The notes under the pieces were generated by a model. It was not told the DNA's origin and did not search any database. It saw only the letters and a program-made list of their open reading frames with translations. A DNA stretch of 40,810 nucleotides, taken from a virus. The stretch lies in the UHGV virus genome UHGV-0204427; one strand, given 5' to 3'. Positions within the stretch are counted from its first letter, which is position 1. The number at the start of each line of letters is the position of its first letter. Of the stretch, positions 1-40,810 are shown piece by piece. The position numbers and the translations under genes are program-made.

Positions 1-132
1 ATGGGTGCCTTTTATATACCCAATTCCCGGCACCTGAAACTCAGGGTGTCCGGGGCCTCCTTTTCTTATGTGATACTTTTCTTTTGCTATATTTTGAGTT
101 ATTATAGGAGAAAGGCGAAGGGAGGGAATGTA

Positions 133-3611: not shown

Positions 3612-4867
3612 CGCAGGGAGATATGGAGAAACTGGCAATACTCATACAGCAGAACATGTCATCTCTGGAAACCCGTGTCATGTCGGATATTGTCCGCAGA
3701 ATTCATATTAATGGAGAAATTACATCGACAGCTGACTGGCAGATGAACCGGCTATATCAGATGGGACTAGGTAAGGACGAAATAAAAAAGGCCATCGTGG
3801 AATCCTTGAAGCTTACGGATAAACAGGCGGAGAAGCTTTTTAAGGATGCCATTGGGAAGGAGTATACACGCAATCAGCAGCTTTATGAGAGACAAGGTAA
3901 GAAATGGATACCGTTTGATGAAAATGAAGAGCTCCAGGACCTTGTGACATCTATTAGCAAGCAGACAGGGGAGGAATTGAGGAACATCACGCAGTCACTT
4001 GGGTTTGCGATTCGGGGGCCGAATGGGAGAATCATACAGTCACCTCTTCTGGAATTCTATCAAGGTACTCTCGATGATGCTATGATGAACATAGCCAGCG
4101 GTACGTTTGACTATGGGACGGTAATTAGGCGGGCTATCCAGACCATGACAAACAGCGGGCTCAGGAGCATTGACTATGATAGCGGGGGGTCAAACCGGGT
4201 GGACGTAGCGGCCAGAAGAGCCGTAATGACTGGATTCAATCAGCTGCAGGCCAAGGTCAATGAGCAGGTGGCTCAGGATTTAAAAACCGATTATTTTGAG
4301 GTATCCTGGCACGGAGGGGCAAGGCCGGAGCATCAGGCATGGCAGGGTGGTATATACAGCCACAAACAGCTTGTGTCGGTCTGCGGCCTTGGAAGCGCGG
4401 CAGGATTGTGCGGAGCAAACTGTTACCATTCATATAATGCCTTTATCCCTGGAGTGTCAGTCCGTACCTATACGGATGAGCAGCTGTATCAGATGAATGC
4501 CCAGGAGAACCAGCCAAAGGAGTATAACGGGAAAGAGTACACAACCTATGAAGCTTTACAGAAACAGAGAAAACTGGAAACGCTCATGCGGAAACAGCGA
4601 CAGGATATCAAACTGTTGCAAACAGGTGGCGCTTCCAAGGACGATCTTCTTGCAGCTAAAAGCCGGTACCGCTCCACGATGACTCAGTATGCAGAGTTTT
4701 CAGGGAAAATGAATCTGCCGCAGCAGAAAGAGCGGGTGTATATGGATGGTCTTGGCCAGATGGTATCAGAGAAAGAGAAGGTTATGTCTCATAAGTTACC
4801 AGCTAAAGAAAAAATGACTTTTATGCAGAAAAAAGAAGCCATTGACAATAATGAGAAAGGTTGGTGA
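3608..4867 (+). CDS. minor head / head morphogenesis protein (SPP1 gp7 / Phage_Mu_F family)
   Basis: Hallmark segment 'SWHGGARPEHQAWQGGIY' characteristic of the gp7/Mu F family. ATGA overlap with the portal. Confidence 0.75.
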   Translation: MTQGDMEKLAILIQQNMSSLETRVMSDIVRRIHINGEITSTADWQMNRLYQMGLGKDEIKKAIVESLKLTDKQAEKLFKDAIGKEYTRNQQLYERQGKKWIPFDENEELQDLVTSISKQTGEELRNITQSLGFAIRGPNGRIIQSPLLEFYQGTLDDAMMNIASGTFDYGTVIRRAIQTMTNSGLRSIDYDSGGSNRVDVAARRAVMTGFNQLQAKVNEQVAQDLKTDYFEVSWHGGARPEHQAWQGGIYSHKQLVSVCGLGSAAGLCGANCYHSYNAFIPGVSVRTYTDEQLYQMNAQENQPKEYNGKEYTTYEALQKQRKLETLMRKQRQDIKLLQTGGASKDDLLAAKSRYRSTMTQYAEFSGKMNLPQQKERVYMDGLGQMVSEKEKVMSHKLPAKEKMTFMQKKEAIDNNEKGW

Positions 4868-5103
4868 CTGATGTGTCAAAGTATAATTGGGATGAAATGG
4901 AGCTTTGCAAAGAGTGCCATTACAAAAACGAGAATCCGGATTTATGTAATTTCAACATTCCGCCAGAGGAAAAGCCATCTGCATTTAATTCCCTTACCAG
5001 TTGTGGTAGATTTCTGAGGGAATCAAAATGGCAACGTTTAGGCGAAGAGCAGCGAAAGTATTATGAGCAGCGTCATGAAAGAAGCAGTGGTCATAAGGAA
5101 TAA
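4861..5103 (+). CDS. small Cys-rich hypothetical protein (start uncertain: TTG 4861 / GTG 4873 / ATG 4897)
   Basis: 'CKECHYKNENPDLCNF...SCGRF' is a possible zinc-binding motif. Sits between gp7-like and prp. Confidence 0.35.
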   Translation: MVTDVSKYNWDEMELCKECHYKNENPDLCNFNIPPEEKPSAFNSLTSCGRFLRESKWQRLGEEQRKYYEQRHERSSGHKE

Positions 5104-5138
5104 GCGCCGTCATCCCACATCGGGCTGGCGGTATTTTA

Positions 5139-5152
5139 TTGCGATATCGCAA
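5139..5152. promoter_or_regulatory. 14-bp perfect palindrome TTGCGATATCGCAA immediately upstream of prp RBS (copy 1 of 2)
   Basis: Read directly. The same 14-mer recurs at 19889-19902 upstream of the endolysin. Confidence 0.5.
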
Positions 5153-5165
5153 CAGGGAGGAATCA

Positions 5166-5474
5166 GTGGTTACAATAGTATTTACGAATCATGATGGAGT
5201 GTGCACCGGCCTTGAAGCATTAGGTCATGCAGGATATGGTGAAATTGGAAAAGACATTGTCTGTGCTGCCGTATCCGCCTTAATTCAAGGAGCAGTCTTA
5301 TCCATTGAGCAGCTGGCCGAAAAGCCGGTGGTCCAGGAGAAAGAAGAAGGGAGAATTTCCTATCATATCCGGGACCCGGACGAAGTAACACAGGTATTGT
5401 TTGCCAGCCTGGAGCTGTCACTTGCAGAATTACAAGCAGAATATAGGAACTATTTAACAGTGTGTCATGGATAA
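5166..5474 (+). CDS. prp: Prp-like cysteine protease (ribosomal-processing cysteine protease / DUF464 family, phage capsid-scaffold N-terminal processing)
   Basis: 'GHAGYGEIGKDIVCAAVSALIQ' matches the Prp catalytic His/Cys region. GTG start 5166 with GGGAGG RBS (the track's 5139 start is a TTG inside the palindrome). Downstream scaffold and capsid carry LQLFA cleavage motifs. Confidence 0.7.
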   Translation: MVTIVFTNHDGVCTGLEALGHAGYGEIGKDIVCAAVSALIQGAVLSIEQLAEKPVVQEKEEGRISYHIRDPDEVTQVLFASLELSLAELQAEYRNYLTVCHG

Positions 5475-5557: not shown

Positions 5558-6133
5558 TTGAGAAAGAAATTTGATTTACAGCTTTTTGCGGACGGTAGCG
5601 GAAGCGGCTCTGAGGGAAACCAGGGTAATAATGCCGGTGATGACGGAAACAAGGGAACCTATAGTTTTGAGCAGGCGGAGGAAATAGCCAACGCAAGGGC
5701 GCATCGTGCGGAGCAGGCGGCCCTGAAATCCTATTTCCAGCAGCAGGGTATGACCGAGGATGAGGTCAAGGCTGCCCTTGCTGATTATAAGACGAATAAG
5801 GAGAAGCAGAAACCCGATGTGTCTGCAATCGAGAAGGAACGGGATGAGGCCAATAAAAAAATCCAGCAGTATGAGAATGAAAAGGTCCTGTCTGGCATGA
5901 AGGTCAGGACGGAAGATTTGGATTATGTGATGTTCAAGGTCAGCGCCCTGGTGACAGACAAAAAGGACTTTAAGACAGCGGCGACCGAATGGCTGAAGGA
6001 TAATCCGAGATATAAAGAAGGCGGCACCTACCGTATGTCGTCCGGGACGCCTGCTTCTGAGGGAAACAAAGGGACAGATACTGGAAATGAGGCTATTAAC
6101 AACATGATTCGAGGAGCATTCGGAAGAAAGTGA
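5558..6133 (+). CDS. scaffolding protein with N-terminal Prp-cleavable leader (MRKKFDLQLFA^DGSG)
   Basis: TTG start with GGAGG RBS. 'FDLQLFA' mimics the ribosomal L27 N-terminal cleavage motif. Charged helical body typical of scaffolds. Position before the capsid gene. Confidence 0.65.
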   Translation: MRKKFDLQLFADGSGSGSEGNQGNNAGDDGNKGTYSFEQAEEIANARAHRAEQAALKSYFQQQGMTEDEVKAALADYKTNKEKQKPDVSAIEKERDEANKKIQQYENEKVLSGMKVRTEDLDYVMFKVSALVTDKKDFKTAATEWLKDNPRYKEGGTYRMSSGTPASEGNKGTDTGNEAINNMIRGAFGRK

Positions 6134-18067: not shown

Positions 18068-18089
18068 AAAAACTATTCTTCTTTTTTTT
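18059..18089 (+). terminator. rho-independent terminator GAAGAATAG-aaaaa-CTATTCTTC + T8
   Basis: Perfect 9-bp stem plus TTTTTTTT. Confidence 0.6.
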
Positions 18090-18217
18090 CTGTATTTTCT
18101 AATTCGTCAATTTGATTAGATTGTCCATTATAGTGAAAAAGTACATCGGAAATCAATTCGGGATTTTTTACATCTAATTCTTTGATGAGAGTTGCTATTT
18201 GTGATAAGAAGAAAATG

Positions 18218-18244
18218 AATCGTAACCTGCAAATCAGGTCTCTA
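18218..18244. repeat. 27-bp direct repeat copy 1 (aatCGTAACCTGCAAATCAGGTCTCTA)
   Basis: Matches 18728-18754 at 24/27 positions. Flanks a ~480-bp AT-rich segment. Confidence 0.6.
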
Positions 18245-18293
18245 TTTTGAATAATATAGGAGCTGTCCTTGAAACAGCAGAAAGAGAGGAATT

Positions 18294-18419
18294 ATGAAAC
18301 CTATAATGATTACAATTAAGGTAGGAAGTTCAGATAAAATAAAAGAAACATTAGAAGTGATTGAGGTAATAAAAAAGAGTCACCCCAATGCTGAGTTTTG
18401 CATTGAGGTGATTGTGTAG
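18294..18419 (+). CDS. 41-aa hypothetical peptide (MKPIMITIKVGSSDKIKETLEVIEVIKKSHPNAEFCIEVIV)
   Basis: RBS AGAGAGGA. Overlaps the terminator hairpin of the convergent minus-strand gene, so may be spurious. Confidence 0.2.
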   Translation: MKPIMITIKVGSSDKIKETLEVIEVIKKSHPNAEFCIEVIV

Positions 18420-18421
18420 AG

Positions 18422-18643
18422 TTACTCTTTCCTTATTTCGATGACACGCAATCCGTCGCCGCGAACGGTATAAGAACCATTTTGCGTTTTCACCCACAAT
18501 GTTTTGCCTGATGGAATATTTTGTGTTAAGAGATTCTCTTCGGATACAGTTATAAGACTACTTGTTCCGTTAAAAGAGATTGATGTAACGTTATTACATT
18601 CCACAAATTTTCCATCGTCATATGTAGCGCAAATATAGTACAT
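18422..18643 (-). CDS. 73-aa hypothetical protein (beta-rich, no signal peptide) inside the direct-repeat-flanked insert
   Basis: Excellent RBS GGAAGGGGGTG 6 nt before ATG (the track start 18652 is GTG with no spacing). Minus-strand terminator hairpin plus T-run downstream at ~18370-18412. Confidence 0.5.
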   Translation of the reverse strand: MYYICATYDDGKFVECNNVTSISFNGTSSLITVSEENLLTQNIPSGKTLWVKTQNGSYTVRGDGLRVIEIRKE

Positions 18644-18727
18644 GATTTTCACCCCCTTCCTACTTGGATTTTACCATAAAGGGGGATAAAAAAACAGAGA
18701 GTAAAAGAATGAGCTTACTATTCCCAA

Positions 18728-19842: not shown

Positions 19843-19885
19843 GATGAGGTGGTCCGCATATCTCCCGCCGCGGGGTTAAGCGGGT

Positions 19886-19916
19886 AGTTGCGATATCGCA
19901 ACTTGTGACGTCACAA
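19886..19916. promoter_or_regulatory. two abutting perfect palindromes: AGTTGCGATATCGCAACT (19886-19903) and TTGTGACGTCACAA (19903-19916)
   Basis: Read directly. The first contains the same 14-mer found at 5139-5152. Confidence 0.5.
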
Positions 19917-19924
19917 CTTTTCAT

Positions 19925-19957
19925 GGCTCAGGGATGCCCCTGGGCCTTATTTTTTTG
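19925..19957 (+). terminator. terminator-like hairpin GGCTCAGGG-atgc-CCCTGGGCC + TTATTTTTTT abutting the endolysin RBS
   Basis: 9-bp stem (1 mismatch) plus T7. The RBS GGAGG follows within 4 nt. Confidence 0.5.
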
Positions 19958-19972
19958 ATGGAGGAAAACACT

Positions 19973-22506: not shown

Positions 22507-23874
22507 TTATAGCTGCTTTAGCTTGATATTCACATTATCATCATCAATTATGATGCGGTCTATAATCATAGTCAGGCAGGCCCTTTTTTCATCCAAGCTT
22601 CCTGCATCAGAAAGCGACATCAAGGTATCTCTCGCGGTTATCATTTCAGCAAGAGTTGTTACCGGCACATTTTTGGGTTTTGATATATTCAGTAGTGCTT
22701 CCTTCTCTTTATTAAGCGCATCCATTTTTTCCTGTATGGTTTCGATTGGGATTCCGCTGACTTGATACAGGTCTATCAGTTTTCCAATCTGCTTATCTAT
22801 CTCATTTAGGCGGATTGAATAATCTGTGACCGGGACCGGAACAGGGTGTCCACTCTTTAATTTAGAAAAGTCTAAACGCATTATGTAATCTAACACCAGT
22901 CTGTCTAATTCCTCTATCTTCCATTTTTTATTCTTGCAGTTGGGGTCAACAATGTACTTTTTATCTCCCTTGGTACGACTATAACAAGAATAATTACCAT
23001 GCTCACCGTGGAACCGTGCCCCACACTTACCACAATAGACGAGGCTTGAAAGAAGGGTGCTCGCCTTAAACGGAGACCGCTTGAAGGTATCAGAGGCCCT
23101 CCTGGAGCTGTTAAACAGGTCCTGTACCTGCCGGAATGTTTCTTCGGATATGATTGGTTGATGATTGCCTTGATAGGCTACCCCCTTAAACTTTACTTTT
23201 CCTATATACAGTTCGTTTTTAAGGACATTCCGGACTAAGACCTCACTGCTCCATCCACCATATTTTTGTTGCATATACTGCCAACAGTTGTGTATGGAAT
23301 ACCCCTTTAAAAACCGATTATACAAATCCTTGACCTGTATGGCCTCATAGTCATTTATTATGAGCTCCCCGTCAATATAGTCATAGCCGGTTGGTGCGTT
23401 GCCACCCCCATGAAAATATCCATTCTTGGCTCTGCCGATGCGTCCCATGGTAAAACGCTCCGTAATCTGGTCTTTCTCCAGCTGGGCAAAGACCGACAGT
23501 ATTCCAATCATGGCCCGGCCAAATGGGGTGGATGTATCAAAATTCTCATTCACAGAAACAAAATCCACATTCTTGGCCAGAAAACAATCCTCAATCAACA
23601 TGAGAGTATCCTTCTGGCTTCTGGATAAGCGGTCAAGCTTGTAAACAATGACAGAATCTATCAATCCTTTGTCGATGTCTTGGAGCATCTGCTGCAGGGC
23701 AGGCCTATTAACGTTTCCGCCGGAATAGCCGCCGTCGGTATATATCTTGACTATCTGAATATCTTTTGCTTTGCAGTATGCCTTCAAACGGTCAGTCTGT
23801 TCCTCTATACTATAGTTTTCTAACTGATTGTCCGTAGATACACGGACATAACATGCGCCTTTAATCATATTCAT
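22507..23874 (-). CDS. large serine recombinase (phage integrase type: resolvase catalytic domain + recombinase domain + zinc ribbon + coiled coil); start possibly the 3rd codon ATG at 23868
   Basis: 'YVRVSTDNQ' catalytic Ser motif. 'SRSQKDTL'. Cys pairs 'CGKCGARF…C'. 455 aa. Confidence 0.9.
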   Translation of the reverse strand: MNMIKGACYVRVSTDNQLENYSIEEQTDRLKAYCKAKDIQIVKIYTDGGYSGGNVNRPALQQMLQDIDKGLIDSVIVYKLDRLSRSQKDTLMLIEDCFLAKNVDFVSVNENFDTSTPFGRAMIGILSVFAQLEKDQITERFTMGRIGRAKNGYFHGGGNAPTGYDYIDGELIINDYEAIQVKDLYNRFLKGYSIHNCWQYMQQKYGGWSSEVLVRNVLKNELYIGKVKFKGVAYQGNHQPIISEETFRQVQDLFNSSRRASDTFKRSPFKASTLLSSLVYCGKCGARFHGEHGNYSCYSRTKGDKKYIVDPNCKNKKWKIEELDRLVLDYIMRLDFSKLKSGHPVPVPVTDYSIRLNEIDKQIGKLIDLYQVSGIPIETIQEKMDALNKEKEALLNISKPKNVPVTTLAEMITARDTLMSLSDAGSLDEKRACLTMIIDRIIIDDDNVNIKLKQL

Positions 23875-24013
23875 CTCTCCTCATACTTAACTATACTCTT
23901 CGGTTGACGTAAAATTACACATATGGTTGCCCGGTGTCCGGAAAGATGATATACTATGTCTTGTACTCAACATTTCTTATCATGGGAACCGTGACACCCT
24001 TGGTAAGGCTGGG

Positions 24014-24050
24014 CCCCTGTGTTTTCTGCACAGGGGTTCTTGCGTTATTT
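24014..24050 (+). terminator. hairpin CCCCTGTG-ttttctg-CACAGGGG followed by TTCTTGCGTTATTT; orphan + strand terminator or att-associated structure
   Basis: 8-bp perfect stem. No + strand gene lies upstream. Confidence 0.35.
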
Positions 24051-25310: not shown

Positions 25311-25339
25311 ATTATAGCATAAAGAAAAATGCTTGTAAA
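25311..25339 (-). promoter_or_regulatory. leftward σ70 promoter (TTTACA-17-TATAAT on the minus strand) for the repressor gene
   Basis: Hexamers ATTATA at 25311-16 and TGTAAA at 25334-39 on the + strand. 17-nt spacer. Confidence 0.5.
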
Positions 25340-25363
25340 GGACAAAAAGAGTAAAAGATATGA

Positions 25364-25398
25364 TTGACAAGGACAAAATTGTGGTATATAATGTCCTT
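25364..25398 (+). promoter_or_regulatory. rightward early promoter TTGACA-17-TATAAT with operator half-sites AAGGACA (25338, 25369 direct) and TGTCCTT (25392 inverted)
   Basis: Perfect consensus hexamers. AAGGACAAAA is repeated twice and forms an inverted repeat across the -10. Confidence 0.6.
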
Positions 25399-25644: not shown

Positions 25645-25854
25645 ATGTTACTTATTTTATTGTCTGTCCTGGTTTCAACGATTACCGCAGCCATCGTCAC
25701 GATTAAGATAACGGCCGCGGTAAAAAGAGAACTAATGACCTACGTCGAAGAAATGTGTGACCTGAATATTGAACAATCACAAAAAATAAAAAACTATGCT
25801 CTGAAAACGGTTGAAATGCTTGTTCGCAATATCAATCAAGACAAGCCTGTATAA
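25645..25854 (+). CDS. 69-aa small membrane protein
   Basis: Hydrophobic N-terminus 'LLILLSVLVSTITAAIVTI'. RBS GAGGTGAG. Confidence 0.4.
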   Translation: MLLILLSVLVSTITAAIVTIKITAAVKRELMTYVEEMCDLNIEQSQKIKNYALKTVEMLVRNINQDKPV

Positions 25855-26590
25855 GGGCTGTACCGAAAGGCGTTAATCCACATATTTTTCCAACAATTTC
25901 AGAATGAAGATATTTCCCCATTTTGATACGTTCTTCTTCGCACTGTTTATAGAAATCTGAATTTTTAAATGGAGAGTCATCAGCGGGGTGAACGAGAGCG
26001 TCATCATCAAATGCAAGTATGCCTAACCGCATCAGTGATGAAAGTGAAAAAGATATATACCTTGCTTCGTGCTGGTTCGGATAAGTATCAAAAGTATAGG
26101 GAACTTTGTTATAAAAGTCATTCTCGCTATTATTGAAATATGTGTATGTAATCAATCGTTCTGGTTTGTTGCTGACATAGTATTTTAAAATTTTAGCATC
26201 ATAAGGGCTCATTTGTTTTAGTGTCTCTGAGAAAGATGGATGTATGAGTTCCTTATAGTCACTATGGCATGAACGTGCTATTAGGTTAGCAAACAGATTT
26301 CTAAGTTCTTCGGAATTGATGCAAGAATCTACATTATCTAATGCAAGCATTATTGTTTGATAATCAGGTTCTATAAGCTTTTCAGATGGAATTTGTTCTA
26401 TACAGAGTTTTAATCGCGCCTCCAATTCAATTAAGCCGTATTTTTCATAGAGACGCCTTTTCTCAGCTTTATAGGATATTGAGCCAAACTTAAGATAGAT
26501 GGCGTCTTTGATGAGAGTTCCAATAGACATTGCTGGTTCGTTAGTAAGGTTTTTAATTGCATTATCAACACAGTTAGGCATGAGTTCCAT
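25832..26590 (-). CDS. Abi-alpha-like (DUF4393) abortive-infection/exclusion candidate, ~252 aa
   Basis: 'IKNLTNEPAMSIGTLI…RNLFANLIARSCHSDYKELIHPSFSETLKQMSPYDAKILKY' recalls the DUF4393 core. Minus-strand gene in the lysogeny region. Confidence 0.5.
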   Translation of the reverse strand: MELMPNCVDNAIKNLTNEPAMSIGTLIKDAIYLKFGSISYKAEKRRLYEKYGLIELEARLKLCIEQIPSEKLIEPDYQTIMLALDNVDSCINSEELRNLFANLIARSCHSDYKELIHPSFSETLKQMSPYDAKILKYYVSNKPERLITYTYFNNSENDFYNKVPYTFDTYPNQHEARYISFSLSSLMRLGILAFDDDALVHPADDSPFKNSDFYKQCEEERIKMGKYLHSEIVGKICGLTPFGTALIQACLD

Positions 26591-26729
26591 AATAATATTC
26601 CCTTCACTAAATACTCGGCGCTGCAACGCCTGTAAGTACAGTATAGGTCAGGGGGAGGAAAAAGACAAGACGGACAACGTAAGAAGTACAACCAGTACCA
26701 CATACAATTTACCAGAGAGGGGTGGTGAT

Positions 26730-35049: not shown

Positions 35050-36419
35050 AGTTTGTACCGCATGATTACCAGAGGTACTGCATCAACCGTATGATATCAG
35101 ATCCTGCCCTGGGCCTGTTTCTTGACATGGGACTCGGTAAGACCGTGATTACCCTGACCGCGGTCAATGACCTTCGGTATAACCGTTTTGAGGTCGGTAA
35201 GTCATTAGTAATAGCACCCAAGAAAGTGGCGGAGGATACCTGGATCCGAGAGGCCGGGAAGTGGGACCATCTGAAACTGCTTCGGATTATCCCCGTGCTT
35301 GGCAGCAGAGAGAAGCGGATAAAGGCCCTTAATACCCCGGGAGATGTGTATGTGCTGAGCCGGGATAATGTGCAATGGCTTGTGGACCATTACCGCAACG
35401 CCTGGCCGTTTGACACGGTAATCATAGATGAGCTGTCCAGTTTCAAGAACCCGCAAGCCAAGCGTTTCAAGAGCCTGTGCCTGGTGAGGAACCACATACG
35501 CCGGATTTATGGGCTGACCGGTACACCGGCGCCAAACGGCCTTCTGGACCTGTGGTCCCAGATATACCTGCTTGACCAGGGACGGCGGCTGGGGACAAGG
35601 ATAGGGCAGTACCGGGAAGAATATTTCTCGCCAGCATCCAGAAACCGGGACACCATCTTTTCATACGCGCCGCTTCCAGGGGCAGACCGGATTATCCAGC
35701 AGCGGATATCCGACATCTGCATCAGCCTGCAGGCAAAGGATTACCTGCAGCTTCCAGAGCGAATTGACAATGTAATACATGTGCGTCTTAATCCCAGGGA
35801 GCAGGCAGCATATGAGAAGTTTGAGCGTGAGATGCTTCTGGAAGTGGACGAGGCCACACTGGATGCCGGGTCAGCAGCGGTGCTTTCCGGTAAGCTCCTG
35901 CAGTTCTGTAATGGGGCCGTATATGACAGTGACAAGCATGCAGTGGAGGTCCATGGCGAGAAGCTGGAGGTATTCAAGGAGATTGTGGAAGGCAGCCAGG
36001 GGAAACCGATACTGGTATTCTACAACTTCCAGCATGACAAGTCCCGTATTATCAAGTGCCTTCCGAAGGGACTTAGGATAGCGGAGCTTAAGGGGCCGGG
36101 CGTAATCAGCCAGTGGAATGAGAGGAAGATAGATGTACTCCTGGCGCATCCGGCCAGTGCCGCTTACGGACTCAACCTCCAGGCGGGTGGAAACATCATC
36201 GTATGGTTTGGCCTTAACTGGTCCCTGGAACTGTATCAACAGGCAAACGCCAGGCTGCACAGGCAGGGACAGACGGATAATGTTATTATCCACCACTTGA
36301 TTGTATCCGGGGGGATGGATGAGGATGTCATGGCAGCGCTGCAGAATAAGCAGGTTACGCAGGATTCCCTGCTTGCGGCCCTTAAGGCAAGGATAGCAAA
36401 AGTGAAAGGGGAAACGTGA
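35046..36419 (+). CDS. SNF2-family DEAD/DEAH helicase
   Basis: Motif I 'DMGLGKT'. Motif II 'IIDELS'. Motif VI 'QANARLHRQGQ'. Confidence 0.85.
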   Translation: MKFVPHDYQRYCINRMISDPALGLFLDMGLGKTVITLTAVNDLRYNRFEVGKSLVIAPKKVAEDTWIREAGKWDHLKLLRIIPVLGSREKRIKALNTPGDVYVLSRDNVQWLVDHYRNAWPFDTVIIDELSSFKNPQAKRFKSLCLVRNHIRRIYGLTGTPAPNGLLDLWSQIYLLDQGRRLGTRIGQYREEYFSPASRNRDTIFSYAPLPGADRIIQQRISDICISLQAKDYLQLPERIDNVIHVRLNPREQAAYEKFEREMLLEVDEATLDAGSAAVLSGKLLQFCNGAVYDSDKHAVEVHGEKLEVFKEIVEGSQGKPILVFYNFQHDKSRIIKCLPKGLRIAELKGPGVISQWNERKIDVLLAHPASAAYGLNLQAGGNIIVWFGLNWSLELYQQANARLHRQGQTDNVIIHHLIVSGGMDEDVMAALQNKQVTQDSLLAALKARIAKVKGET

Positions 36420-38074
36420 TGGAGGAAGTTAAGAAAACAGGATTGACCTTTATAGATACCAGGCGGCTGGCCAATATATCCTACAAGGATATCAAAAATG
36501 GTTTTGTAGGCTTCGGCTATTACCTGAAAATCATCCGGGATGAAAAGCTGTGGCAGGGACAAGGTTATGACAGCTTTAACGAGTTTTTGGGTGATGAATA
36601 CGGCAAGGACAAGTCTTGGGCGTCCAGGTGTATCAACCTGTATGATAAATTCGGAATCCCGGTAGAGCCAGGGGAACTGCCGAGGCTGGAAGATGCATAT
36701 GAGTCGTACAATGTCAGCCAGCTGATAGAGATGATACCTATGCAGGAGGAGTTGCAGGAGCAGGTCACCCCGGATATGTCGGTCAAAGCCATCCGGGCAC
36801 TGAAGCCAAGAAAAGAGAAGAAAGTTGCGACCGTCGCAACCCCGGAGCAAGAACCAGAGCCCCACCAGGAAGCCCAGACGGAGCCAGAGCCGGAACCGCC
36901 CCGTCCGGAAAAGTCTGGGAAGTGCATCCACCGGCCAGAATTTGACTGCACCCTGGAGGAGGCCCATAAGCTCATCCCGGGAACCGGGGAGGACTGCAGC
37001 CGGGTGTGCTGCTGGGAATGCGTCAGGCGCGGTGACTGTGAGTTGGAATGTTATAGTTCGCAGCGGCGCCCGGAGCATCTGGAACCCCCAAAGACAAAGC
37101 CGGATTGTCTGCCGCTGGATACCGCGGATACGCACCGGGAGGAAACGGCCATCCCTTCCCAGAAGGAATGTGTTCTGGACTTCTATCAGCATCACATGTC
37201 CAAGCCGTGTGCGCAGGCCGCCAATGACGGGAACGTGAAACTGCTGAGGCAGGAGCTGATAATCAATCACGGAGAACCCCATAACAGCGGGTCAACGGAG
37301 TACGGCTTTTATCAATGCGGCCCGGAACGGATTCATTTTCAGGATAATATGTGCGAGACATTTCTGAGCTTGACCTGGGGGAAGTACGTAAAGGAATTAC
37401 TCAGCCTCTTGGGGAGTGCTGAGGATGAGGCATCAGAACATGAAAACGATGTTCCAGGTATGCCAGAATCCCAGGATACCGTGATTGATGGTGAATTCAC
37501 GGAGATTTCAGAAACGGAGGAGGACATCCGGGCCCCGGAGGAACCCATGACCGAGCTGCAGATTGCCCAGGATGAACTGGAGCGTGCCAAAAAGCTGCTT
37601 AATGATGGGCTAAAATGTGATGTGGATGAAAATGACATACATATCCGCCGGCTGAAAATAAAGGTTTGCGCCCTGGCCAGCTATGTGTGCGATTTGGATG
37701 ACATCGTGAACCCTCCGCCGAAGCCAGAGCAGCCGGAACTGCCGGTGCTTAAGAATAATGACCAACGGGCTGCCTTCGTGGATGCATATGAGACGTGGCC
37801 GTTATGGATTGAGACGAAACAGACCGGGGAACGGTACTACCGGTATGACCTGGAGGACGGCACCAGCATGGTGGTGAAGGTATACCACGCAAGGATATTC
37901 GATGGATATGCGTCAGGAAGCTATGAGGCCAAATATCATGATGGTTACGGCCGGCATGAGTACTATCTGCTGCGGGATGGGAAGTTCTTCCGGGATTGCG
38001 ATACGAACCGGTCATTGCTGATTGAGAAACTGAAAGAGATTCAGAAGGTGAAAAAAGGCTGTAACCAGAATTAG
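36416..38074 (+). CDS. 552-aa hypothetical: N-terminal globular domain, acidic/Pro-Glu linker, Cys-rich segment (…CIHRPEFDC…CSRVCCWECVRRGDCELEC…), C-terminal domain
   Basis: GTG/ATG start 36416/36419 with RBS GAAAGGGG. No confident family assignment. Confidence 0.5.
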   Translation: MMEEVKKTGLTFIDTRRLANISYKDIKNGFVGFGYYLKIIRDEKLWQGQGYDSFNEFLGDEYGKDKSWASRCINLYDKFGIPVEPGELPRLEDAYESYNVSQLIEMIPMQEELQEQVTPDMSVKAIRALKPRKEKKVATVATPEQEPEPHQEAQTEPEPEPPRPEKSGKCIHRPEFDCTLEEAHKLIPGTGEDCSRVCCWECVRRGDCELECYSSQRRPEHLEPPKTKPDCLPLDTADTHREETAIPSQKECVLDFYQHHMSKPCAQAANDGNVKLLRQELIINHGEPHNSGSTEYGFYQCGPERIHFQDNMCETFLSLTWGKYVKELLSLLGSAEDEASEHENDVPGMPESQDTVIDGEFTEISETEEDIRAPEEPMTELQIAQDELERAKKLLNDGLKCDVDENDIHIRRLKIKVCALASYVCDLDDIVNPPPKPEQPELPVLKNNDQRAAFVDAYETWPLWIETKQTGERYYRYDLEDGTSMVVKVYHARIFDGYASGSYEAKYHDGYGRHEYYLLRDGKFFRDCDTNRSLLIEKLKEIQKVKKGCNQN

Positions 38075-39245: not shown

Positions 39246-40271
39246 ATGATGGCAGAACAGGTGAATATAGATCGAGTAATCATGCAGGTAATGGATAATG
39301 TGACGCAGGTGGTTGAGGAACAGGAACGGCTGAATGAGGTCAAACAGATATTGTATATGTGCCTGTCCAGGTTTCAAATATTTGAGGAGGAAACAGCGCT
39401 TTCTGTGGACGTGGACCGCACGGTGGAGTACTTGAAACAATATCTTCTGCAGATGAAGTTGGATGGATGTACTGACGGGAGCATTCAGGGGTATAAGAAT
39501 AACATTAAGAACATGCTGAATTATATCAATAAGAATGTGACTGAGATTACATACCAGGACCTCAAGGGATACATGGCCTATGGGAAGCTGGTCAGAAAAT
39601 GGAAAGACAGGACTTACAACAGTCAGCTGATATCCATTCGTAGTTTTTTCTCATTCCTTTATGCGGAGGATATGCTTCCGGATAATCCGGCCAAGAAACT
39701 TAAGGAAACTAAGGTGGAATACCGGATAGGTCCCACACTGCAACCCGAGCAGCGAGAAATGGTTAGATGCGCATGTGCGGATGAGCTGGAGCTGGCAATA
39801 TGTGACATGTTATATGTGACAGGGATACGTGTGTCTGAGTTGTGCGGCATGAATCAGTCAGACGTTGACTTTAATCGTAAGACGGCAATCGTATATGGGA
39901 AGGGGCGTAAGGAACGCCAGGTATGCCTCAATGGACAGGTAGCCCTGCACCTTTGGAGATATCTTCAAAGTCGGAATGACGACAATCCAGCCTTATTTGT
40001 TTCCCCACATGGACAATGCAGGCGCATCGGGGCCCAGACGGTTAGGAATATCCTGAAACGAATTAAAGAGAGGGACGAAGAGTTGGCGGATGTCAAGGTC
40101 ACCCCGCATGTGTTCCGCCGTACTGTGGGAACCGATATGATTAACAAAGGGGCGCCGGCAGAGATAGTGAAGGAGGTACTGGGCCATGTCAAGATTGATA
40201 CAACGCTTAAGTGCTATGCAGCTATTAGTAAGGACACCGTGCGGCAGGCACATGCACGCTTTGTAGGATAG
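39246..40271 (+). CDS. tyrosine site-specific recombinase (XerC/D-phage integrase family) with N-terminal SAM-like domain
   Basis: 'TGIRVSELCG' (Arg I). 'HVFRRTVGTDM' (H-x-x-R). 'LGHVKIDTTLKCYAAIS' (His…Tyr nucleophile). Confidence 0.8.
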   Translation: MMAEQVNIDRVIMQVMDNVTQVVEEQERLNEVKQILYMCLSRFQIFEEETALSVDVDRTVEYLKQYLLQMKLDGCTDGSIQGYKNNIKNMLNYINKNVTEITYQDLKGYMAYGKLVRKWKDRTYNSQLISIRSFFSFLYAEDMLPDNPAKKLKETKVEYRIGPTLQPEQREMVRCACADELELAICDMLYVTGIRVSELCGMNQSDVDFNRKTAIVYGKGRKERQVCLNGQVALHLWRYLQSRNDDNPALFVSPHGQCRRIGAQTVRNILKRIKERDEELADVKVTPHVFRRTVGTDMINKGAPAEIVKEVLGHVKIDTTLKCYAAISKDTVRQAHARFVG

Positions 40272-40283
40272 GAGGATTCAAAA

Positions 40284-40736
40284 ATGGCAGATAAGAGCAT
40301 ATTAAAACAATATGCAAGCATGATAAAAGAGGCAGAAGACGAAGAACGCAGAATACGGAATTTAGAAGCAGAAATTAGGTCTATGCGGCCGCTTGATAGA
40401 GAAGTTACAGATGTTGTGACAAGAGGAAAACGAGGAAAGAAACCACTCGGAACCTGTGTGATTCGTGGAGAGAACGACCATTCGGCCATCAATCGGAAAC
40501 GTGCCAGGCTTAGGGAGAGGAAAGCAAAAAAGGAGCTTCATGTATCCAGGATTGAAATGATGGTTGCCGATGCGGAAGAATATATTTACAGCATTGATGA
40601 TAGCGAATTAAGACGTATTACAGAATTTTACTGTATTGACAGAAAAAACTGGGATGAAGTAGCCGAAGCAATGGGAGAGGGGTATACTGCTGAGGCTTGT
40701 AAACAAAAATTTTCCAGATTTATGCGCGTCAAGTAA
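40284..40736 (+). CDS. putative late-gene transcriptional activator (ArpU/RinA-like, C-terminal sigma-70 region-4-like HTH)
   Basis: C-terminus 'LRRITEFYCIDRKNWDEVAEAMGEGYTAEACKQKF' is HTH-like. Position immediately before the late promoter and packaging genes. Confidence 0.45.
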   Translation: MADKSILKQYASMIKEAEDEERRIRNLEAEIRSMRPLDREVTDVVTRGKRGKKPLGTCVIRGENDHSAINRKRARLRERKAKKELHVSRIEMMVADAEEYIYSIDDSELRRITEFYCIDRKNWDEVAEAMGEGYTAEACKQKFSRFMRVK

Positions 40737-40738
40737 AA

Positions 40739-40772
40739 TTGTCACGTTTGTCACGCTGATATGTGATATAAT
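40739..40772 (+). promoter_or_regulatory. activator-type late promoter: direct repeats TTGTCACG (40739-46, 40748-55), no -35, extended -10 TGaTATAAT (40764-72)
   Basis: Read directly at the 3' edge of the window, pointing toward the packaging genes if the sequence is circular. Confidence 0.45.
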
Positions 40773-40810
40773 TTAAAATGAGAAAAGTGTAAGCATTTAG
40801 GCATCCAGCA

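What the first reader, a model, noticed from the sequence alone, without database searches (positions are those of the whole stretch)
5139..5152. Recurrent perfect palindrome TTGCGATATCGCAA upstream of prp and upstream of the endolysin
The 14-bp perfect palindrome occurs exactly twice in 40.8 kb, at 5139-5152 and 19889-19902. Chance expectation for a given 14-mer on both strands is far below 0.001. Each copy sits just upstream of an RBS, GGGAGG of prp and GGAGG of the endolysin. The second copy is extended to an 18-bp palindrome and abuts another, TTGTGACGTCACAA, which is two CRP-like TGTGA/TCACA half-sites with a 2-bp spacer. A dimeric DNA-binding protein site marking two late transcription units, or an RNA-level hairpin, is a reasonable reading.
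Basis: seen in the sequence. Interest (0 to 1): 0.6.

Follow-up and report, generated by a model that had tools for sequence, protein, structure and literature searches.

The report
Portable palindrome marking phage module joints
The repeated 14-base palindrome is real and is one member of a family of short mirror-symmetric DNA elements that gut Lachnospiraceae phages carry exactly where genes or protein domains have been swapped between phages, so it looks like a built-in joint for phage mosaicism rather than a switch for the two late genes.

Summary
TTGTGACGTCACAA (P2) abuts the second copy. A third relative, TTGCGACCGTCGCAA (36825-36839), sits in frame inside a replication-module gene.

P1 is not private to this phage. 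It recurs in more than 120 IMG/VR contigs and in Enterocloster, Hungatella and Lacrimispora prophages. It always sits in a joint: after a stop codon or intrinsic terminator, before a Shine-Dalgarno or a terminator, or in an inter-domain linker. It belongs to a family with the consensus TTGYRMY|RKYRCAA.

When two phages share one flank of P1, similarity ends within 3 nt of the palindrome in 52% of cases. Genes and one protein domain are bracketed by family members. Clean presence/absence alleles exist.

No sigma-70 promoter is present at either copy. The late promoter uses unrelated direct repeats. P2's spacing is not CRP-like. Neighbouring true RNA hairpins covary freely, whereas P1 is invariant.

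Best reading (confidence about 0.4): a dyad-symmetric module-boundary "linker" at which cassettes are exchanged, probably recognised as DNA by a symmetric protein that has not been identified. Rivals are a dispersed operator or roadblock, and an RNA hairpin.

The parts
5106..5138 (+). Intrinsic-terminator-like hairpin (5106-5132) plus U-tract, placed after the stop of the 80-aa ORF (4861-5103) and directly abutting P1 copy 1
   Evidence: RNA fold. The same terminator, then P1, then SD architecture recurs in many loci.
5139..5152 (.). P1 copy 1, TTGCGATATCGCAA. It lies 2 nt before the SD GGGAGG (5155-5160) and the GTG at 5166 of prp (5166-5474).
19846..19885 (+). S-element. It consists of the SD-like GAGGTGGTCC, then ATCTCCC, then a hairpin CCGC/GCGG with the conserved loop GGGGTTAA. 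It is a separate conserved module that often accompanies P1.
   Evidence: Stems covary freely and the loop GGGTWA is conserved.
19886..19903 (.). P1 copy 2 (core 19888-19901), extended here to an 18-bp palindrome. It starts 43 nt after the holin stop.
19903..19916 (.). P2, TTGTGACGTCACAA, the second family member, forming a tandem array with P1
   Evidence: A 15-bp P2 indel distinguishes L008 from L043.
19925..19956 (+). Strong intrinsic terminator (stem-loop 19925-19946 plus T-run) lying between the palindrome array and the endolysin SD (19960-19964) and ATG (19973)
   Evidence: There are 28 distinct hairpin sequences at this position among 59 cassettes.
36824..36840 (.). P1', GTTGCGAC-C-GTCGCAAC (core 36825-36839). 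It lies in frame (KVATVAT) in the linker between the N-domain and the variable C-part of gene 36416-38074.
   Evidence: Homologues carry P1, P2 or chimeras in the same slot.

Best explanation
P1 is a copy of a portable, dyad-symmetric module-boundary element, a 'linker'. It belongs to a family with the consensus TTGYRMY|RKYRCAA, of which TTGCGATATCGCAA is the commonest member. The family is specific to temperate phages of Lachnospiraceae.

**Shown**
- The element occupies the joints between exchangeable units. These are a stop codon or terminator followed by the next SD; a stop codon followed by a terminator; or an inter-domain linker read in frame.
- It is an island of exact identity between otherwise unrelated flanks.
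- Mosaic breakpoints pile up at its edges.
- Genes and one protein domain are bracketed by family members.
- Alleles with and without the element exist.

**Inferred**
- Because the same 14-16 bp sit at equivalent joints in many genomes, co-resident phages or prophages recombine there. They thereby swap head, lysis, integrase, moron and domain cassettes without damaging coding sequence.
- Different family members at consecutive joints keep exchanges in register.
- The strict symmetry through the centre, the invariant TTG/CAA ends and the half-site chimeras suggest that the site is read as duplex DNA by a symmetric (dimeric) protein, such as a recombinase, a nuclease or a binding factor. That protein has not been identified.
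- In this window the two P1 copies therefore mark the left edge of the prp-scaffold-capsid block and of the endolysin cassette. They do not mark promoters.
For: **Distribution**

**Breakpoints**
- There were 488 comparisons in which one flank was at least 90% identical over 40 nt. In these, similarity on the other side ends 0-3 nt from P1 in 52%. About 5% would be expected if breakpoints were uniform over 80 nt.
- 429 of 497 one-sided pairs break within 3 nt of P1.

**Lysis cassette**
- Homology starts at P1 behind at least 6 unrelated upstream genes and in front of two endolysin types.

**Cassettes bracketed by family members**
- L096: P1, gene, P1.
- L160 and L474-476: P1', a domain of about 100 aa, P2, all in frame.
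- L342, L358, L390 and L187: P2, gene, P1, gene, P4.

**Linker of the 552-aa gene family**
- The N-domain is conserved, the C-parts differ, and the junction lies at the palindrome.
- In L480-483 the break is inside the left arm (GTTGC|TCCGG).

**Presence/absence alleles**
- A 17-bp P1 allele lies upstream of an integrase (alignment A1).
- A 15-bp P2 indel exists.
- Close relatives L421 and L422 lack both the terminator and P1 at the prp joint.

**Family enrichment**
- Besides P1 and P2 there are 41 further contexts in 20 sequence types, against about 3 expected.
- P6 shows the same terminator, palindrome, SD architecture in another phage group.

**Internal control**
- There are 28 different terminator hairpins, and the S-hairpin stems covary freely. 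P1 is exact in 49 of 59 cassettes.
Against: - 14-16 bp is short for ordinary homologous recombination, and no dedicated recombinase or nuclease was found.
- The window's tyrosine recombinase has homologues in 45 loci (609 kb) that almost all lack P sites. Integrase types differ among P1-bearing phages.
- Any conserved functional site would also attract crossovers, so breakpoint clustering does not prove that recombination is the reason the site exists.
- Two identical P1 copies in direct or inverted relation in one genome would risk a 14.7-kb deletion or inversion.
- A pure homology model does not require palindromy.
- The loci were largely fetched by searching for P1 or P2, so counts are biased and many contexts are related by descent.
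Confidence: 0.4

Rival explanations
1. Dispersed operator or roadblock. P-family sites are binding sites for one dimeric DNA-binding protein, phage- or host-encoded, with half-site TTGYRMY. This protein insulates or silences units such as the endolysin, head genes, integrase and morons next to terminators. Recombination at the sites would be only a by-product of their conservation.
For: - P1 is conserved exactly, including at synonymous positions in a disordered coding linker.
- Dyad symmetry runs through the centre in at least 6 sequence-distinct members, and half-site chimeras exist.
- TTG/CAA is invariant at an 8-bp spacing, while flanks beyond +/-1 are random.
- Tandem arrays resemble multiple operators.
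- 64% of viral P1 contexts lie within 60 nt of an intrinsic terminator.
- The commonest imperfect member has an A.C mismatch on the sense strand, which argues against an RNA stem.
Against: - There is no promoter at the sites and no P-like site in the immunity region.
- P1-bearing phages have different repressors, integrases, replication modules and late activators, so no common phage-encoded binder is visible.
- All Lachnospiraceae genome hits look like prophage.
- Members with an extra central base change the half-site spacing.
- The central dinucleotide is the most variable part.
- There are only 1-4 sites per genome.
Confidence: 0.3
2. RNA-level element. The palindromes act as short hairpins on the polycistronic late and early mRNAs. 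They would serve as processing sites, 5' or 3' stabilisers, or insulators between cistrons, working together with the neighbouring terminators, the strong SD and the STAB-SD-like S-element.
For: - The element always lies in transcribed inter-cistronic or linker positions, 1-8 nt before strong SDs or 5-13 nt before terminators.
- P1 folds as a 5-7 bp hairpin with dG about -4.8 kcal/mol and z -3.5.
- Family members differ by paired changes, and odd-centre members keep the arms.
- It is accompanied by an SD-like sequence complementary to up to 16 nt of the 16S rRNA 3' end, as in STAB-SD 5' stabilisers (PMC4113751).
Against: - Paired changes also occur at positions 6/9 and 7/8, which cannot pair in a hairpin.
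- P1 is sequence-invariant, whereas adjacent genuine hairpins covary freely.
- The commonest imperfect variant has A.C on the sense strand.
- Wobble-compatible and incompatible variants are about equally frequent.
- The stem does not extend beyond +/-1.
- There is no Rfam match.
Confidence: 0.15
3. On this view P1 and P2 are an activator, CRP-like or XRE site that defines two late promoters, for prp and for the endolysin. The site would be bound by the late activator (40284-40736) or by the XRE proteins.
For: Both copies precede late genes. P2 contains TGTGA and TCACA, and its half TTGTGACG differs by one base from the late-promoter repeat TTGTCACG.
Against: - There are no -35/-10 elements at either site.
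- The endolysin copy is followed by a strong terminator.
- The late promoter has direct repeats, not inverted ones, and other P1 phages have unrelated repeats.
- The CRP spacing is wrong (2 bp rather than 6).
- The CI/Cro operators are unrelated direct repeats.
- P1 also precedes integrases and morons, and lies inside a gene.
- Close relatives with the same late activator lack P1 at prp.
Confidence: 0.05
4. There is no function. The two copies would be chance or a hitch-hiking remnant of shared ancestry.
For: Many loci are closely related, with endolysins 85-97% identical.
Against: - The expected count is 0.11 for up to 2 mismatches.
- P1 is an exact island between unrelated flanks in dozens of contexts, and in divergent coding linkers whose proteins are 34-40% identical.
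Confidence: 0.02

Closest known systems
PeSL (promoter-early stem-loop) mobile regulatory cassettes of T4-type phages (PMC2839356, PMC4122927)
   Same: - Both are short conserved composite intergenic motifs next to a stem-loop terminator.
- Both are repeated within and between genomes and flank non-essential, variable ORFs.
- In both, indel and replacement end-points between related phages fall in the motif, which serves as the point of exchange between otherwise unrelated sequences.
   Different: - A PeSL contains a strong sigma-70 promoter. P1 has none.
- P1 is only 14-16 bp, perfectly palindromic and a member of a multi-sequence family.
- P1 also occurs in frame inside a gene.
- The hosts are Firmicutes temperate siphoviruses, not T4-like myoviruses.
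- Mini-circles were not testable.
'Linker' or boundary sequences of the modular theory of phage evolution (Susskind and Botstein; lambdoid boundary sequences). This entry rests on my own knowledge and is not drawn from the paper library.
   Same: Both are short conserved sequences at module boundaries, proposed to direct homologous exchange in register. Different sequences sit at consecutive joints.
   Different: In lambdoid phages, evidence for such linkers has been weak and the sequences are not palindromic. Here the element is a defined family with exact copies in hundreds of contigs, and it also operates at the domain level.
Stoperators of Cluster A mycobacteriophages (PMC9283540, PMC6550527)
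   Same: Both are a short conserved site dispersed in short intergenic spaces across early and late regions of a temperate phage, and not associated with promoters.
   Different: - Stoperators are asymmetric 13-mers present in 20-30 or more copies.
- They are oriented with transcription.
- They are identical to the operator at the early lytic promoter and are bound by the monomeric immunity repressor.
- P-family sites are palindromic, number 1-4 per genome, are absent from the immunity region, and are shared by phages with different repressors.
REP/BIME (REPIN) extragenic palindromes, and RPE-type palindromic elements that insert in frame into genes. This entry rests on my own knowledge.
   Same: Both are short palindromic units. 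They occur in tandem mosaics of different unit types after stop codons and between cistrons, and some insert in frame into coding regions. Roles in mRNA 3' stability and recombination have been proposed.
   Different: - REPs are 20-40 nt and imperfect, number hundreds per host chromosome, and are spread by RAYT transposases.
- P elements are 14-16 bp and perfect, were seen only in phage or prophage DNA, and no HUH or RAYT gene is present.
Integron attC / gene-cassette organisation. This entry rests on my own knowledge.
   Same: Promoter-less cassettes are delimited by palindromic sites, and cassette content varies between relatives.
   Different: - attC sites are 57-141 bp imperfect palindromes recombined as folded single strands by IntI next to attI/Pc.
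- P sites are 14 bp, and no associated integrase was found. Homologues of the tyrosine recombinase are not linked to P sites.
FNR/FixK- and CRP-type boxes (TTGAT-N4-ATCAA, TTGA-N6-TCAA, TGTGA-N6-TCACA). This entry rests on my own knowledge.
   Same: Both are 14-bp dyads with TTG...CAA at the same outer spacing as an FNR or FixK box. P2 contains TGTGA and TCACA.
   Different: Position 4/11 is Y/R instead of A/T. The inner 8 bp are conserved and symmetric rather than free. P2's CRP-like halves are 2 bp apart, not 6. No promoter lies at activator distance.

Membership tests
PeSL-type mobile regulatory cassette | The motif contains a strong sigma-70-like promoter | tested here: not met
   No promoter-like site overlaps 5100-5170 or 19880-19970. 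By eye, the best -35-like TTGCGA has no -10 at 16-18 nt.
PeSL-type mobile regulatory cassette | The motif includes or abuts a stem-loop terminator | tested here: met
   Terminator hairpins at 5106-5132 and 19925-19946. 94 of 148 viral P1 contexts have a terminator within 60 nt.
PeSL-type mobile regulatory cassette | It flanks variable, non-essential ORFs, and indel or replacement end-points between relatives fall in the motif | tested here: met
   Morons (Tad2-like, DUF4406, DUF6275) follow P1. Breakpoints lie at the P1 edge. Presence/absence alleles exist.
PeSL-type mobile regulatory cassette | Recombination between nearby copies yields mini-circles | not testable with these tools
   This needs PCR or sequencing of phage DNA.
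Stoperator-type dispersed repressor site | Asymmetric site oriented with transcription, tens of copies per genome | tested here: not met
   The site is a perfect palindrome. The 40.8-kb window holds 2 P1, 1 P1' and 1 P2.
Stoperator-type dispersed repressor site | Same sequence as the operator at the early lytic promoter, bound by the immunity repressor | tested here: not met
   The divergent promoters at 25311-25392 carry direct repeats TTGTAAAGGACAAAA / TTGACAAGGACAAAA and no P-like site. P1 phages have different immunity regions. Binding itself was not testable.
CRP-type box | TGTGA and TCACA separated by 6 bp, at activator distance from a promoter | tested here: not met
   The spacing in P2 is 2 bp and there is no promoter downstream.
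REP/BIME (REPIN) | High copy number in extragenic regions of the host chromosome, with a RAYT transposase | tested here: not met
Pfam scans of the window found no HUH or RAYT gene.
Integron attC / cassette array | attC of 57-141 bp with R''-L''...L'-R' boxes (RYYYAAC...GTTRRRY) | tested here: not met
   The element is 14-16 bp. GTTGCGA does not fit GTTRRRY, and the order of the boxes is reversed (direct reading of the sequence).
Integron attC / cassette array | Adjacent IntI-type tyrosine recombinase that co-occurs with the sites | tested here: not met
   The tyrosine recombinase at 39246-40271 is present. However, 45 homologue loci (609 kb) contain no exact P1 and only scattered family members.
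Structured RNA hairpin (stabiliser or processing site) | Base pairs maintained by compensatory or wobble changes on the transcribed strand; loop free to vary | tested here: inconclusive
   Family members differ by paired changes. However, these changes also occur at unpairable central positions. P3 has A.C on the sense strand. Neighbouring real hairpins covary while P1 does not.
Structured RNA hairpin (stabiliser or processing site) | Transcript 5' or 3' ends or cleavage at the element | not testable with these tools
   No transcriptome data were available.
Module-boundary 'linker' (Botstein-type) | The same short sequence sits at equivalent joints of otherwise divergent genomes, and crossovers are located in it | tested here: met
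Module-boundary 'linker' (Botstein-type) | The sequence is required for, or stimulates, exchange | not testable with these tools
   This needs crosses with mutated sites.

The most novel reading that the evidence does not exclude
The P-family palindromes could be the recognition sites of a dedicated exchange system that has not yet been identified. The idea is a symmetric nuclease or recombinase, phage- or host-encoded, that cuts or synapses at TTGYRMY|RKYRCAA. Such a system would let Lachnospiraceae phages swap promoter-less gene cassettes, and even protein domains in frame. Different palindromes would act as heterospecific sites that keep exchanges in register, and chimeric palindromes would be the recombinant products. 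In effect this would be an integron-like shuffling system for phage mosaicism.
Probability: 0.15. Interest if true: 0.85.

Novelty: new variant of a known kind. Interest (0 to 1): 0.62.

Why it matters
How phage genomes become mosaics is a long-standing question. One view invokes random illegitimate joins filtered by selection. The other invokes exchange at conserved "linker" sequences.

Here a defined 14-bp palindrome family sits exactly at the joints of head, lysis, integrase, moron and even intra-protein domain modules. It does so in a large and poorly studied group of human-gut phages. Breakpoints are concentrated within 3 nt of the element.

That makes the linker idea directly testable, by crosses with mutated sites and by pull-downs for a binding protein. 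The family also provides a practical marker for cassette boundaries and anti-defence morons in Lachnospiraceae prophages. If a dedicated enzyme exists, it would be a new recombination tool.

Tried and rejected
1. **Restriction-site avoidance or an EcoRV link.** GATATC is over-represented, not avoided (34 copies against 10.8 expected). Rejected.
2. **Rfam family.** No match at gathering scores, and only noise at E<=10.
3. **Literature.** None of the six palindrome strings occurs in a relevant paper.
4. **GenBank phages.** There is no close relative and no cassette match.
5. **Prp-based locus search.** This found nothing. Head-module relatives at 47-57% identity lack the motif.
6. **Sigma-70 promoter in or around P1, on either strand.** None found (and by eye). 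Sigma-54 spacing was checked by eye and does not fit.
7. **Late activator as binder.** Late promoters carry phage-specific direct repeats unrelated to P1.
8. **CI or XRE operators.** These are unrelated.
9. **Tyrosine recombinase (39246-40271) as a partner.** Its homologue loci lack P sites, and it is itself a mosaic module.
10. **The 552-aa protein as a λ O-like initiator with its origin in its own linker.** Only 1-2 palindromes are present, with no iteron array or AT-rich tract. There is no Pfam, PDB or NCBIfam hint of function. This remains open and unsupported.
11. **A small ORF running through the S-element, P1, P2 and the terminator.** The reading frame is not conserved between loci (by eye).
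12. **Strand asymmetry of G.U-compatible substitutions as a test for an RNA stem.** Too few independent cases were available, and those that could be oriented were mostly A.C.
13. **RNAalifold on the S-element.** MAFFT mis-registered the second hairpin. The analysis was redone by anchoring on the loop.
14. **Comparison by eye with known operators and sites.** The comparison covered host operators (LexA, Rex, CcpA, parS, Spo0A, LacI- and GntR-type), attC core sites and CRISPR repeat hairpins. No convincing match was found.
Full report
**1. Observation**

The 14-mer TTGCGATATCGCAA (P1) occurs at 5139-5152 and at 19888-19901. There are no further matches even when 2 mismatches are allowed, where 0.11 would be expected.

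Apart from a TA run, the only perfect palindromes of 14 bp or more in the window are these two and TTGTGACGTCACAA (P2, 19903-19916). The second P1 is part of an 18-bp palindrome, of which 0.03 would be expected.

Copy 1 follows the stop of an 80-aa ORF and a terminator-like hairpin with a U-tract (5106-5138). It ends 2 nt before GGGAGG and the GTG of a Peptidase_Prp gene.

Copy 2 follows the holin stop and a conserved SD-like hairpin element. It is followed by P2, then by the best intrinsic terminator of the first 20 kb (19925-19946 plus a T-run), and only then by GGAGG and the ATG of the endolysin. So only the first copy sits just upstream of an RBS.

TTGCGACCGTCGCAA (36825-36839) has the same arms with a 3-nt centre, and lies in frame in gene 36416-38074. 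Arms TTGCGA...TCGCAA occur three times, against 0.015 expected.

**2. The genome**

The window is a complete, circularly permuted temperate siphovirus. Relatives L421 and L422 run across the junction 40810|1.

The gene order is as follows:
- a terminase region, portal, minor capsid protein 2 and an 80-aa ORF;
- [terminator, P1], then Prp, scaffold and major capsid;
- tail genes and holin;
- [S-element, P1, P2, terminator], then the endolysin;
- an XRE/ImmA pair, a serine integrase, a CI-like repressor and Abi_alpha;
- a replication module (DUF2800 nuclease, Enc34-type SSB, PolA, VapE, VRR-NUC, SNF2 and a 552-aa protein of unknown function);
- a tyrosine recombinase and a 150-aa late regulator.

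The host is Lachnospiraceae. The 16-mer GTTGCGATATCGCAAC is found in Enterocloster, Hungatella, Lacrimispora, [C.] clostridioforme and Lachnospiraceae MAGs, always in prophage-like contexts. Hits in other phyla are at the chance level.

**3. P1 is widespread and positionally conserved**

Endolysin relatives in IMG/VR (77 loci) mostly carry the block P1, P2, terminator, SD. The sequence upstream of P1 belongs to at least six unrelated genes. In L075-L077 the downstream endolysin has a different catalytic domain.

Among 59 distinct cassettes P1 is exact in 49. The terminator hairpin beside it has 28 different sequences, and the 20 nt upstream has 42.

Most of the non-lysis contexts have the architecture of window copy 1: an intrinsic terminator and T-run, then (G)TTGCGATATCGCAA(C), then the SD, then a start codon 13-22 nt downstream. 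The genes that follow include:
- DUF2213 or scaffold head genes;
- an XkdN-type tail chaperone;
- endolysins;
- four kinds of tyrosine integrase;
- morons (Tad2-like, DUF4406, DUF6275).

Of 148 distinct viral contexts, 94 have a terminator within 60 nt and 38 have an SD plus an ORF within 36 nt.

In phages whose minor capsid protein is only 41-50% identical to the window's, P1 lies in the same slot between that gene and the scaffold gene.

**4. A family, not a single word**

The same slots hold other 14-mers with TTG...CAA ends:
- P2;
- TTGTAATATCACAA;
- TTGCACCGGTGCAA;
- TTGTAACGTTACAA;
- TTGCGCCGGCGCAA (the terminator, palindrome, SD, ATG architecture in a different phage group);
- TTGTGCCGGCACAA;
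- 15-mers with one extra central base.

The pattern is TTGYRMY|RKYRCAA. Leaving out P1 and P2, it occurs in 41 distinct contexts (20 sequence types), where about 3 would be expected. Eight contexts are perfect palindromes and 33 combine two different half-sites.

Flanking positions are G and C in 59% of contexts at +/-1, and random beyond that. Within P1 variants the arms are constant and the central dinucleotide varies.

P2 occurs in 110 IMG/VR stretches, about half of them next to P1.

**5. The element sits at mosaic joints**

Take pairs of distinct P1 contexts that are at least 90% identical over the 40 nt on one side. In these pairs:
- similarity on the other side stops 0-3 nt from the palindrome in 52% of 488 comparisons;
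- it stops at 4-10 nt in 7%;
- it runs at least 80 nt in 11%.

With a stricter one-sided definition, 429 of 497 pairs break within 3 nt. These comparisons are not phylogenetically independent, and the loci were selected for P1. Even so, a uniform distribution would put about 5% in that window.

Cassettes are bracketed by family members:
- L096 has terminator, P1, gene, P1, a small peptide, terminator.
- L342, L358, L390, L187 and L164 have P2, a 121-aa gene, P1, a second gene, and a P4-type site.
- Insertions in L017 and L054 are flanked by duplicated P or terminator segments.

In the 552-aa gene family the palindrome lies at the end of the conserved N-domain:
- Homologues carry P1 (read as VAISQQ), P2 (VVTSQ), P1' (VATVAT) or chimeras in that slot.
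- The N-domain is 34% identical while the following segment is 73-85% identical, or the reverse.
- A domain of about 100 aa is inserted between P1' and P2 in L160 and L474-476.
- In L480-483 the join to a different, short C-terminus lies inside the left arm.

Clean alleles exist:
- P1 (17 bp) is present or absent upstream of one integrase in otherwise 85-90% identical DNA (alignment A1).
- P2 is a 15-bp indel.
- Lysis cassettes exist with 0, 1, 2 or 3 palindromes.
- L421 and L422 share the window's replication module, late regulator and scaffold. In them prp overlaps the end of the minor-head gene, with no terminator and no P1.

The element is therefore optional for the phage and travels with particular module variants.

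**6. What it is not**

It is not a promoter. No sigma-70-like site overlaps either copy, and the endolysin copy is followed by a strong terminator.

It is not the late-activator site. The late promoter (40739-40775) has two direct repeats TTGTCACG and an extended -10. Other P1-bearing phages have different direct repeats there. All of these promoters are followed by a terminator-like hairpin and a conserved leader hairpin. This suggests antitermination, which would explain how terminators inside the late operon are tolerated.

It is not the immunity operator.

It is not CRP-like, because the spacing is 2 bp.

It is not tied to the tyrosine recombinase. Forty-five homologue loci (609 kb) contain no exact P1.

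It is not a known RNA family, and it is not in the literature searched.

**7. DNA or RNA?**

P1 can fold into a hairpin with a 5-bp stem and a 4-nt loop, with dG -4.8 kcal/mol, and all sites are transcribed. Several observations nevertheless argue for recognition of duplex DNA:
- Real hairpins in the same cassettes change sequence freely with compensation, while P1 does not. These are the terminator and the S-element hairpin with its GGGTWA loop.
- Family members remain symmetric at the central positions, which cannot pair in a hairpin.
- Half-sites are reassorted into chimeras.
- The commonest imperfect member has an A.C mismatch on the sense strand.

Against a classical dimer operator:
- Some members have an extra central base.
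- The centre is variable.
- There are no promoters at the sites.
- No protein is shared by P1-bearing phages.

**8. Mechanism**

I commit, at about 0.4, to a module-boundary linker. This is a short dyad-symmetric sequence kept at equivalent joints of many phage genomes, at which cassettes are exchanged.

The coincidence of joints and element is shown. It is inference that the element causes the exchange, and that a symmetric protein reads it.

The operator or roadblock model (about 0.3) explains the conservation equally well. It would produce breakpoint clustering as a by-product. It lacks a binder and a regulatory logic for the in-frame linker copies.

The RNA model (about 0.15) fits the company the element keeps: terminators, strong SDs and a STAB-SD-like sequence (PMC4113751). 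It does not fit the pattern of variation.

**9. Comparison with known systems**

Functionally the closest system is the PeSL cassette of T4-type phages. PeSLs are conserved terminator/promoter motifs flanking variable ORFs, and they serve as points of exchange (PMC2839356, PMC4122927). The promoter criterion is not met here.

Mycobacteriophage stoperators (PMC9283540, PMC6550527) share the dispersed, promoter-independent placement. They fail on symmetry, copy number and identity with the immunity operator.

REP/BIME, attC and FNR/CRP boxes each share one trait and fail defining ones (see the membership table).

I therefore file the element as a new variant of a known kind, a recombinogenic boundary motif. 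It has unusual properties: a perfect 14-bp palindrome family, use inside a coding linker, and a lineage-wide distribution in gut Lachnospiraceae phages.

**10. Caveats**

Most loci were retrieved by searching for P1 or P2, or for the endolysin, and many are related. No complete relatives other than the window were available, so co-occurrence with trans-acting genes could not be tested. No expression or binding data exist.

Noticed in passing
window 19846-19885; also L184, L294, L156, L271, L013 and others: The S-element is an SD-like GGAGGTG(G/A)TCC followed by ATCTCCC and a hairpin. In relatives the SD-like part extends to AGAAAGGAGGTGATCC, which is the perfect complement of 16 nt of the 16S rRNA 3' end. 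The hairpin stem covaries freely while its loop GGGT(T/A)A is conserved. The element sits after stop codons, either before or after P1. It resembles a STAB-SD-type ribosome-binding mRNA stabiliser (PMC4113751), but it has no Rfam match.
   Followed up: partly
window 40739-40810 and 1-70; L158 1560-1700, L101 1420-1550, L105: The late promoter has two direct repeats TTGTCACG and an extended -10 (TGATATAAT). It is immediately followed by a terminator-like hairpin and by a conserved leader hairpin, CCCGGCACCTGAAACTCAGGGTGTCCGGGG (window 24-55). That leader is shared by phages whose activator repeats differ. This looks like a promoter-proximal terminator plus a conserved RNA, meaning late control of the antitermination type.
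   Followed up: partly
window 23927-24050; L137 1040-1170: The promoter TTGCCC-17-TATACT, with a TG extension, is followed about 85 nt later by an intrinsic terminator (24014-24036). It lies next to the integrase gene, and an analogous unit sits next to a different integrase in L137. This is a candidate small RNA at the prophage end.
   Followed up: no
window 36416-38074 and homologues (L160 12483-13398, L474-L476, L480-L483): This is a 552-aa protein of unknown function (phrog_15077). It has a conserved 134-aa N-domain, a low-complexity linker, a Cys-rich segment and highly variable C-parts. A domain of about 100 aa is present or absent between two palindromes, and some relatives are truncated to 153 aa.
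   Followed up: partly
window, whole: GATATC (the EcoRV site) occurs 34 times against 10.8 expected. This is over-representation of a 6-bp palindrome rather than avoidance.
   Followed up: no
window 40810|1: The window is a circular permutation of the genome. L421 and L422 are collinear across the window ends.
   Followed up: yes
window 22507-23874 (-) and 39246-40271 (+): The phage has two recombinases. One is a large serine recombinase at the lysogeny end. The other is an XerC/D-like tyrosine recombinase wedged between the replication module and the late regulator. The tyrosine recombinase is itself a mosaic module found in unrelated contexts.
   Followed up: partly
window 5166-5474 and 5558-5600: A phage-encoded Prp protease gene is followed by a scaffold protein whose N-terminus, LRKKFDLQLFADGS, carries the L27/Prp-type cleavage motif. 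Relatives have NLQLFAEP.
   Followed up: no
window 18080-18700: This is an AT-rich island with minus-strand ORFs and its own terminators, lying between tail genes and the holin region. It is probably a moron expressed from the prophage.
   Followed up: no
window 25832-26626 (-): An Abi_alpha (abortive infection) gene lies in the lysogeny region.
   Followed up: no
L096 4855-4932: A 25-aa hydrophobic peptide, MTPAVQITAIICLTLIILCWNGKKK, lies between a P1 copy and a terminator. It resembles a type I toxin.
   Followed up: no
L017 1880-2906: A moron is inserted between the P1-P2 array and the endolysin. It has a perfect TTGACT-17-TATATT promoter carrying two 12-bp palindromes (GTTGCATGCAAC and GTTACATGCAAC), a small basic protein and an antirepressor-like ORF. 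The insert is flanked by a duplicated terminator segment.
   Followed up: partly
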